Positions 27,749 through 27,963 of a DNA stretch of 47,623 bases are shown piece after piece. The position numbers and the translations under genes are program-made. The notes under the pieces were generated by a model. That model was not told where the DNA came from, made no database searches, and saw only the letters and a list, made by a program, of their open reading frames with translations. Source of the stretch: a virus (taxonomy: Duplodnaviria; Heunggongvirae; Uroviricota; Caudoviricetes); IMG/VR virus record IMGVR_UViG_2541047816_000005, positions 1 to 47,623 of that record. One strand, written 5' to 3'. The stretch's first letter is position 1. The number at the start of each line of letters is the position of its first letter.

Positions 27749-27963
27749 TTACTCTCCCCGCGCCGCCTTACGCCGGTCCTCTCTGATTTTGAAATACAGG
27801 TTAGTCAGGTACGTCAGCAGCCCAAACAGCAGACTCCCCAGCACGCCTATTGCGCCCACTGAGACGGGGAAACCCTGTCCAGCAACTGCAGGAACCAGTA
27901 GCCCGTTCCCACCGCTGACGTGGTGTATGACACACCTGTTGTGATTTTTTCCATCTGGTACAT
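27749..27963 (-). pseudogene. phage-21-type pinholin (S21-like) with apparent 1-nt frameshift
   Basis: hand translation [37 protein letters not shown] then stop; the rest ([33 protein letters not shown]) continues in another frame; dual-start Met1/Met4. Confidence 0.6.

What the first reader, a model, noticed from the sequence alone, without database searches (positions are those of the whole stretch)
27749..27963. Pinholin gene interrupted by a single-base frameshift
Hand translation matches a phage-21-type holin through ...SPSQWA, then a stop appears; the conserved rest ([15 protein letters not shown]...[13 protein letters not shown]) continues in another frame, consistent with one missing G near 27850-27853. 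Either the prophage is lysis-defective or this is a sequencing error at a short G/C run.
Basis: seen in the sequence. Interest (0 to 1): 0.45.

Follow-up and report, generated by a model that had tools for sequence, protein, structure and literature searches.

The report
Frameshifted pinholin gene in E. coli prophage
A prophage lysis-timing gene (a phage-21/933W-type pinholin) has lost one base and is cut in half; this looks like a real but ordinary loss-of-function mutation, found in only two E. coli assemblies.

Summary
On the minus strand, 27963-27847 encodes [38 protein letters not shown]. The rest of the holin ([35 protein letters not shown]) continues in the -1 frame to 27749. Compared with intact homologues, exactly one base is missing: coding strand GCGGCA to GCGCA, + strand CC to C at 27853. 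Adding it back gives a 71-aa protein that is 99% identical to phage 933W S and 79% identical to phage 21 S21-71 (Pfam PF04971).

This deletion is the only indel across 30 kb against the nearest complete genome. None of 5,426 complete E. coli genomes matches at 100%. The deletion junction is absent from IMG/VR and JGI metagenomes.

The same truncated 38-aa product occurs on two separate GenBank assemblies (E. coli HVH 194 and GCA_002469015.1). A random sequencing error is therefore unlikely.

The truncation removes TMD2, the pore-forming helix, and the C-terminal tail, so pinholin function is almost certainly lost. The SAR endolysin (94% identical to 933W R) and the Rz/Rz1 spanins are intact. 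I infer that lysis after induction would be late and ragged rather than absent.

This is a rare, recent pseudogene of a well-known gene. Interest is low.

The parts
27847..27963 (-). 5' fragment of the holin gene: 38 codons plus TAG. It holds Met1/Met4 (dual-start positions), the weakly hydrophobic TMD1 and the loop, and ends …SPSQWAQ*.
   Evidence: Pfam PF04971 profile positions 1-33, E=2.9e-12; GGAG Shine-Dalgarno 7 nt upstream of the ATG (sequence).
27853..27853 (.). Site of the 1-bp deletion. The + strand CC run is reduced to one C; on the coding strand GCG-GCA (Ala37-Ala38) becomes GCG-CAA-TAG.
   Evidence: Pairwise and multiple DNA alignments with intact homologues.
27749..27859 (-). 3' fragment of the holin gene in the -1 frame: TMD2 plus the charged C-terminal tail. 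It is open from a GTG at 27859-27857 that lies 10 nt upstream of the premature TAG.
   Evidence: Pfam PF04971 profile positions 34-63, E=9.2e-15; hydropathy maximum 2.09 at residues 37-51 of the repaired protein. No good Shine-Dalgarno: AGGG sits 13 nt upstream.
27256..27744 (-). DUF1327/YdfR-family ORF (162 aa) immediately downstream of the holin stop. Function unknown.
   Evidence: Pfam PF07041 E=1.2e-43; PHROGs unknown function.
26756..27241 (-). 161-aa ORF of unknown function between the holin and the endolysin.
   Evidence: No Pfam hit; matches positions 140-296 of phrog_1085, whose first half matches the DUF1327 ORF.
26186..26719 (-). Intact SAR-type endolysin (177 aa). It has an N-terminal Ala/Gly-rich weakly hydrophobic segment and the E35-x8-D44-x5-T50 catalytic motif.
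   Evidence: Pfam PF00959; 94% identical to 933W R, which PMC9239132 lists as a SAR endolysin; motif and hydropathy.
25382..25849 (-). Intact i-spanin Rz (155 aa).
   Evidence: Pfam PF03245 E=1.7e-49.
25444..25629 (-). Intact embedded o-spanin Rz1 (61 aa) with a lipobox …LVVSAC and a proline-rich body.
   Evidence: Translation of the +1 frame inside Rz.
34171..34563 (-). Q-type late antiterminator (quuD-like) upstream on the same strand. Shown for context: the holin lies in the late operon.
   Evidence: PGAP annotation of the near-identical region in GN06667 and B2.3.

Best explanation
This is a genuine, recent one-base deletion (ΔG in GCGGCA, codon 38) in the S gene of a lambdoid prophage. 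The prophage sits next to mlrA/yehV in an extraintestinal E. coli, most likely strain HVH 194. S is a class II pinholin-type holin, 99% identical to 933W S once repaired. In phage 21, TMD1 leaves the membrane and TMD2 assembles into small heptameric channels. These collapse the proton-motive force, which releases and activates the membrane-tethered SAR endolysin. Here translation stops after TMD1 and the loop, so the product lacks TMD2 and the cytoplasmic tail and cannot form pinholes. The gene is a null allele. The SAR endolysin and the Rz/Rz1 spanins downstream are intact. After induction, lysis should therefore depend on slow spontaneous release of the endolysin and be late and asynchronous, unless another prophage supplies a holin. 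Shown: the deletion, its uniqueness, its presence in two assemblies, family membership, and intact neighbouring genes. Inferred: loss of function and the lysis phenotype.
For: The deletion is exact and is the only difference from intact homologues in the gene. L149 is identical to the window over 1,935 nt apart from this gap. It is the only indel in 30,165 nt against GN06667, and the 8 SNPs outside the 17459-17509 repeat region are all synonymous, missense or intergenic. The exact 38-aa product is recorded on two contigs: EQT94815.1 of E. coli HVH 194 (3.23-Mb scaffold) and NMOB01000048.1 of GCA_002469015.1. In the latter the site is about 6 kb or more from either contig end. That contig is not a copy of the window, because it carries 10 clustered mismatches in the lysozyme gene. 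Of 24 contigs read that carry the identical neighbouring DUF1327 protein, 22 have the 71-aa holin and 2 have the 38-aa form. One of the 22 is another KE7-series scaffold assembly, GCA_000459595.1. Family evidence: PF04971 at 112.5 bits for the repaired protein, PHROG holin families, 79% identity to S21-71 of phage 21 and 99% to 933W S. Function of the lost part: TMD2 is 'necessary and sufficient' for S21-68 pore formation (bioRxiv 10.1101/2021.04.20.440580). A V43 amber allele of S21-68, which truncates later than this one, is included as the nonsense-allele counterpart of S21-68 in PMC9239132. SAR endolysins release spontaneously at a low rate without a holin, giving later and broader lysis (PMC9239132).
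Against: No reads could be inspected. I could not establish whether GCA_002469015.1 is an independent isolate, a resequencing of the same strain, or data from the same platform. Outside the lysozyme cluster it is identical to the window over 12 kb. No complete RefSeq genome carries the allele, so it has no long-read confirmation. The phenotype is wholly inferred. The window shows only one prophage, so trans-complementation by other prophage holins cannot be assessed.
Confidence: 0.8

Rival explanations
1. The missing base is a sequencing or assembly artefact and the strain has an intact 71-codon holin gene.
For: One missing base in a GG/CC dinucleotide is the smallest possible difference. No complete genome has it. 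The junction is absent from IMG/VR and JGI metagenomes. Many draft contigs end inside this gene at codons 35-39, so the region is awkward to assemble in genomes with several prophages.
Against: The same deletion appears in two different GenBank assemblies with different contig structure. In one of them the site is far from a contig end. The window has no other indel against relatives over 30 kb, or over 20.9 kb against L142 and L139, so it is not an indel-prone assembly. A two-base run is not a homopolymer error hotspot. GCA_000459595.1, another KE7-series scaffold assembly, has the intact allele with the same flanks.
Confidence: 0.13
2. The frameshifted gene still gives holin activity. This could happen by ribosomal -1 frameshifting that restores the 71-aa protein. 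It could also happen by termination-reinitiation at the GTG (27859), which would make a 36-aa TMD2-plus-tail peptide acting as a minimal, unregulated pinholin alongside a free TMD1 peptide.
For: The GTG-initiated ORF overlaps the premature TAG by 13 nt, a geometry compatible with reinitiation. N-terminally truncated S21-68 variants that lack TMD1 (S21 30-68) still form pores, although transient ones.
Against: There is no X XXY YYZ slippery heptamer at CAG TGG GCG CAA TAG. There is no usable Shine-Dalgarno for the GTG (AGGG at -17 to -14). About 7,000 pinholin molecules per cell are needed (PMC9636201), which is hard to reach by leaky reinitiation. The 36-aa ORF is not called anywhere in the protein collection. 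The arrangement occurs in only two assemblies, so there is no sign of selection for it.
Confidence: 0.05

Closest known systems
S (holin) of Stx2 phage 933W (NP_049504.1)
   Same: The repaired protein is 70/71 identical. It has the same late-operon position downstream of Q, tRNAs and the SASA/NanS-p esterase, and the same partner endolysin type (R 94% identical) and Rz/Rz1.
   Different: The window gene lacks one G in codon 38 and encodes only the first 37 shared residues plus Q. Two extra ORFs (DUF1327 and a 161-aa ORF) separate S from R, whereas in 933W they are adjacent. No stx genes are present.
S21 pinholin/antipinholin (S21-68 / S21-71) of lambdoid phage 21 (OL657228.1, UMO75477/8)
   Same: Same Pfam family (PF04971). 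The repaired protein is 79% identical and the same 71-codon length. Met1/Met4 are conserved, as are the YWFLQ patch, the [14 protein letters not shown] junction and the [13 protein letters not shown] tail. It is paired with a Sec-exported lysozyme and spanins.
   Different: The window gene is truncated before TMD2. The N-terminal extension is MYQ (no positive charge) rather than MKS, so antiholin behaviour of the long form is not assured even in intact alleles. The partner endolysin is only 31% identical to R21.
S21-68am (V43 amber) allele listed alongside wild-type S21-68 in PMC9239132
   Same: It is a premature stop inside or before TMD2 of a pinholin. It is tested in parallel with S21-68 in the SAR-endolysin release experiment.
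   Different: It is an engineered nonsense codon at residue 43 of S68. The window allele is a natural frameshift that terminates earlier, at about residue 35 in S68 numbering.

Membership tests
Class II holin / phage 21 S family (Pfam PF04971 Phage_holin_2_1; pinholin) | Sequence match to the family profile above the curated threshold | tested here: met
   Repaired protein 112.5 bits against a cut-off of 26. Fragment 1 scores 46.8 bits (profile 1-33) and fragment 2 scores 54.8 bits (profile 34-63). PHROG holin families phrog_9876 and phrog_20 also match.
Class II holin / phage 21 S family (Pfam PF04971 Phage_holin_2_1; pinholin) | One uninterrupted ORF of about 68-71 codons encoding both TMDs | tested here: not met
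   A stop follows codon 38 and the remainder lies in the -1 frame. The locus is a pseudogene of the family, not a functional member.
Class II holin / phage 21 S family (Pfam PF04971 Phage_holin_2_1; pinholin) | Two TMDs: a weakly hydrophobic, releasable TMD1 and a strongly hydrophobic TMD2 followed by a charged C-terminal tail | tested here: met
The Kyte-Doolittle 15-residue mean reaches at most 0.72 over residues 7-31 and peaks at 2.09 at residues 37-51, followed by the [13 protein letters not shown] tail. The actual first ORF holds only TMD1.
Class II holin / phage 21 S family (Pfam PF04971 Phage_holin_2_1; pinholin) | Dual-start motif giving an antiholin with an extra positive charge at the N-terminus | tested here: inconclusive
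   Met1 and Met4 are present as in S21, but the extension is MYQ rather than MKS, with no Lys or Arg.
Class II holin / phage 21 S family (Pfam PF04971 Phage_holin_2_1; pinholin) | Linkage to a SAR (Sec-exported, membrane-tethered) endolysin and spanins in the Q-dependent late operon | tested here: met
   The endolysin is 94% identical to 933W R, which PMC9239132 lists as a SAR endolysin. The E-x8-D-x5-T motif and an Ala/Gly-rich N-terminal segment are present. Rz and Rz1 are intact. Q lies upstream on the same strand.
Class II holin / phage 21 S family (Pfam PF04971 Phage_holin_2_1; pinholin) | Forms about 2-nm heptameric pinholes that depolarise the membrane and can be triggered by energy poisons | not testable with these tools
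   This needs expression, DNP-triggering and cysteine-accessibility experiments.
Programmed -1 ribosomal frameshift site | Slippery heptamer X XXY YYZ at the frame junction, with a downstream stimulatory element and conservation of the two-frame arrangement | tested here: not met
   The junction reads CAG TGG GCG CAA TAG, which contains no slippery heptamer. The two-frame arrangement is found in only 2 assemblies, whereas the intact protein is on at least 1000 contigs.

The most novel reading that the evidence does not exclude
The deletion has turned the pinholin gene into a two-cistron 'split pinholin'. A free 38-aa TMD1 peptide would be made, together with a 36-aa TMD2-plus-tail peptide reinitiated at the GTG overlapping the premature stop. 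The second peptide would act as a weak, unregulated pore former resembling the engineered S21 30-68 truncation, so the prophage would keep some membrane-depolarising activity with altered timing.
Probability: 0.05. Interest if true: 0.35.

Novelty: already known. Interest (0 to 1): 0.12.

Why it matters
The finding has little wider significance. It flags one prophage in one small E. coli lineage as having lost its lysis clock. This bears on whether that prophage can still release particles efficiently, and on annotation: the 38-aa 'hypothetical protein' EQT94815.1 is a holin fragment. It also provides a natural TMD1-only / TMD2-only allele that a lysis laboratory could use. It does not challenge the current understanding of pinholins or of prophage decay.

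Tried and rejected
- **Junction scans.** I scanned IMG/VR and JGI metagenome contigs for the 32-nt deletion junction and found none. The intact junction, used as a positive control, gave at least 120 IMG/VR contigs.
- **Literature on the assemblies.** I searched papers for NMOB01, GCA_002469015 and HVH 194 to learn whether the two assemblies are independent isolates. There were no hits.
- **Rest of contig NMOB01000048.1.** I tried to retrieve it through exact look-ups of the tape-measure protein and the 299-aa ORF. Both proteins are too widespread (430 and 106 blocks), and that contig was not returned. Those calls did supply close intact relatives.
- **Programmed frameshifting.** Rejected, because there is no slippery heptamer and the arrangement is not conserved.
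- **Contig ends at holin codons 35-39.** I considered whether these point to a mis-join at the deletion site. The first paralogue polymorphism lies about 42 nt downstream. The deletion is also interior to the second assembly's contig. I therefore treat the coincidence as incidental; it may be a k-mer-length effect, which I did not verify.
- **Tandem repeats in the portal region.** Tandem Repeats Finder found nothing in the window. The copy-number difference exists only in relatives.
- **Primary pinholin papers.** The two PMC ids I tried (PMC1750887, which I recalled from memory for Park et al. 2006, and PMC2168629, Park et al. 2007) are not held. I cite secondary sources instead.
- **Loci L002 and L003.** These could not be read from Python, so I re-fetched the region as L004.

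Full report
**Observation**

The window's minus strand from ATG 27963 translates as [38 protein letters not shown] and stops at TAG 27849-27847. The -1 frame is open across the same region. It reads …[35 protein letters not shown] and stops at 27751-27749. The mechanical ORF list shows these as a 56-aa ORF (27847..28017, whose last 38 codons from ATG 27963 are the holin fragment) and a 36-aa GTG-initiated ORF (27749-27859).

Pfam places the first fragment on positions 1-33 and the second on positions 34-63 of PF04971, 'Bacteriophage P21 holin S'. The E-values are 2.9e-12 and 9.2e-15.

**The lesion**

A megablast of 27700-28020 against 5,426 complete E. coli genomes found the region in 2,450 genomes. 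No match reached 100%. The best hits were 99.7% identical and one base longer than the query. Alignment with CU37RT-2 shows a single gap and no substitution over 321 nt: coding-strand TGGGCGGCAAT becomes TGGGCGCAAT. In + strand coordinates, a CC run is reduced to the single C at 27853.

In a five-way alignment every intact homologue has a base in that column, including phage 21 S. Restoring it gives a 71-aa protein. That protein is 99% identical to 933W S and 79% identical to S21-71 of phage 21 (OL657228.1).

**Real mutation or error?**

I could not see reads, so I tested this indirectly.

- *Assembly quality.* Over window 17459-47623 (30,165 nt) the window differs from strain GN06667 by 16 substitutions and one indel, and that indel is the holin deletion. 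Against L142 and L139 over 20.9 kb it is again the only gap. L149 is identical over 1,935 nt apart from the gap. The window is therefore not an indel-prone assembly.
- *Recurrence.* The exact 38-aa product is recorded on two contigs. One is a 3.23-Mb scaffold of E. coli HVH 194 (4-2356805), protein EQT94815.1, which is probably the source of the window. The other is the 30.5-kb contig NMOB01000048.1 of GCA_002469015.1.
- *Separate assemblies.* The second contig carries the same deletion about 6 kb or more from either contig end. It differs from the window at 10 clustered positions in the lysozyme gene (26255-26346) and nowhere else in 12,117 nt. It is thus a separate assembly of a very close relative or of the same strain.
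- *Rarity.* Of 24 contigs read that encode the identical neighbouring DUF1327 protein, 22 have the 71-aa holin and 2 have the 38-aa form. One of the intact ones, GCA_000459595.1, carries the same KE7-series scaffold accession style.
- *Other collections.* The deletion junction is absent from IMG/VR and JGI metagenome contigs. The intact junction is in at least 120 IMG/VR contigs, and the intact protein is on at least 1000 contigs.

Taken together, this points to a rare, recent and real mutation confined to one small lineage. I estimate about 0.8-0.85 for this reading and about 0.13 for an artefact.

**Context**

The window is a lambdoid prophage whose integrase gene ends the window. In near-identical genomes the prophage abuts mlrA (yehV). 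All of the following lie on the minus strand, in order:

- Q (34171-34563)
- two tRNAs (31909-32070)
- a TolA-domain ORF
- a SASA/NanS-p-type esterase (28642-30603)
- DUF1378 and DUF826 ORFs
- the broken S gene
- a DUF1327 ORF and a 161-aa ORF
- a 177-aa lysozyme
- a 37-aa ORF
- Rz with Rz1 embedded

The lysozyme is 94% identical to 933W R, which PMC9239132 lists as a SAR endolysin. It has the E35-x8-D44-x5-T50 motif and an Ala/Gly-rich N-terminal segment. Rz (PF03245) is intact. So is Rz1, which has the lipobox LVVSAC and a proline-rich body.

PHROGs gave no lysis annotation for the small neighbouring ORFs, so I found no substitute holin in the cassette. The eight SNPs against GN06667 outside the 17459-17509 repeat region are synonymous, missense or intergenic. 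The holin deletion is therefore the only gene-disrupting difference from the nearest intact relatives.

**Mechanism (inferred)**

In the phage 21 paradigm, pinholins accumulate in the inner membrane and TMD1 flips out. TMD2 then forms about a thousand heptameric ~2-nm channels that collapse the proton-motive force. This releases and activates the tethered SAR endolysin (PMC9636201; PMC9239132).

TMD2 is described as necessary and sufficient for pore formation (bioRxiv 10.1101/2021.04.20.440580). A V43 amber allele of S21-68 is listed and tested in parallel with wild-type S21-68 in PMC9239132. The window allele stops earlier, at about residue 35 in S68 numbering, and keeps only TMD1 and the loop. 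It should therefore be null.

SAR endolysins also release spontaneously at a low rate when no holin is present, which gives later and less synchronous lysis (PMC9239132). Because of this, I expect delayed, ragged lysis rather than none. Polarity on R and Rz should be small, because late transcription is Q-antiterminated; that point rests on general knowledge and was not tested here.

**Rival readings**

- *Programmed -1 frameshifting* is unsupported. There is no slippery heptamer, and the arrangement is not conserved.
- *Split pinholin.* The GTG at 27859 lies 10 nt upstream of the premature TAG. Termination-reinitiation could in principle yield a 36-aa TMD2-plus-tail peptide like the S21 30-68 truncation, which still forms transient pores. 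Against this, there is no usable Shine-Dalgarno. Thousands of molecules per cell are needed. Only two assemblies carry the arrangement. I give it about 5%.

**Verdict**

The feature is an ordinary loss-of-function allele of a very well-known gene. Interest is low.

Noticed in passing
window 16993-19253 (-): The portal region is two ORFs: 454 aa with a complete PF04860 portal domain, and 299 aa. They overlap by ATGA at 17889-17892. Relatives carry 454+299, 454+353, 454+407, or one fused 861-aa ORF (L133). The second ORF changes in 54-aa (162-nt) steps. PGAP calls the gene 'frameshifted' in GN06667. It is unclear whether the split form is a defect or the normal two-gene arrangement; it is widespread (106 blocks of the collection).
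   Followed up: partly
L129 (GCA_052981555.1) versus window 741-21591: This relative is 100% identical to the window over about 20.8 kb but has an IS21-family element (IstB plus transposase ORFs) inserted in the portal ORF near window 18260. This is a different, independent inactivation in the same prophage lineage.
   Followed up: no
protein P0008 (58 aa, 22 contigs); corresponds to window ~27845 joined to ~26560: Another holin allele fuses codons 1-40 to an alternative frame of the lysozyme gene. It reflects a larger deletion that removes the DUF1327 ORF, the 161-aa ORF and the 5' end of the lysozyme gene, and is a second, more common way this lysis cassette is destroyed.
   Followed up: no
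window 26756-27744 (-): Two ORFs of unknown function (DUF1327, 162 aa; and a 161-aa ORF without a Pfam hit) sit between S and R, which are adjacent in 933W. Together they cover positions 1-151 and 140-296 of one PHROG profile (phrog_1085), so they may be halves of a single about 296-aa protein. PGAP marks the first as 'missing C-terminus' in relatives.
   Followed up: partly
window 26255-26346 (lysozyme gene) versus L005: All 10 mismatches between the window and the other deletion-bearing assembly fall within 92 nt of the lysozyme gene. This suggests gene conversion from a paralogous prophage lysozyme, or a paralogue mix-up in the draft assembly.
   Followed up: no
window 31202-33982: The slot that holds stx in Stx phages lies between the tRNAs (31909-32070) and the SASA esterase. 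Here it carries a 142-aa TolA-domain ORF (31202-31630). An OmpC-like porin gene (32840-33982, + strand) and a truncated DNA methyltransferase lie between Q and the tRNAs. ARAGORN calls the CAT-anticodon tRNA Met, whereas PGAP and 933W annotate it as Ile (ileZ-type).
   Followed up: no
window 27955-27963 (-), holin codons 1-3: The N-terminal extension of the longer translation product is MYQ, with no positive charge. In S21-71 it is MKS, and the extra Lys is what makes the long form an antiholin. The 933W-type holins may therefore lack a classical dual-start antiholin.
   Followed up: no
cluster 1 (P0003-P0007): Hundreds of draft-assembly contigs end inside this holin gene at codons 35-39 and are annotated 'holin, partial'. 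The likely reason is that several lambdoid prophages per genome share the sequence, so assemblies break there.
   Followed up: partly
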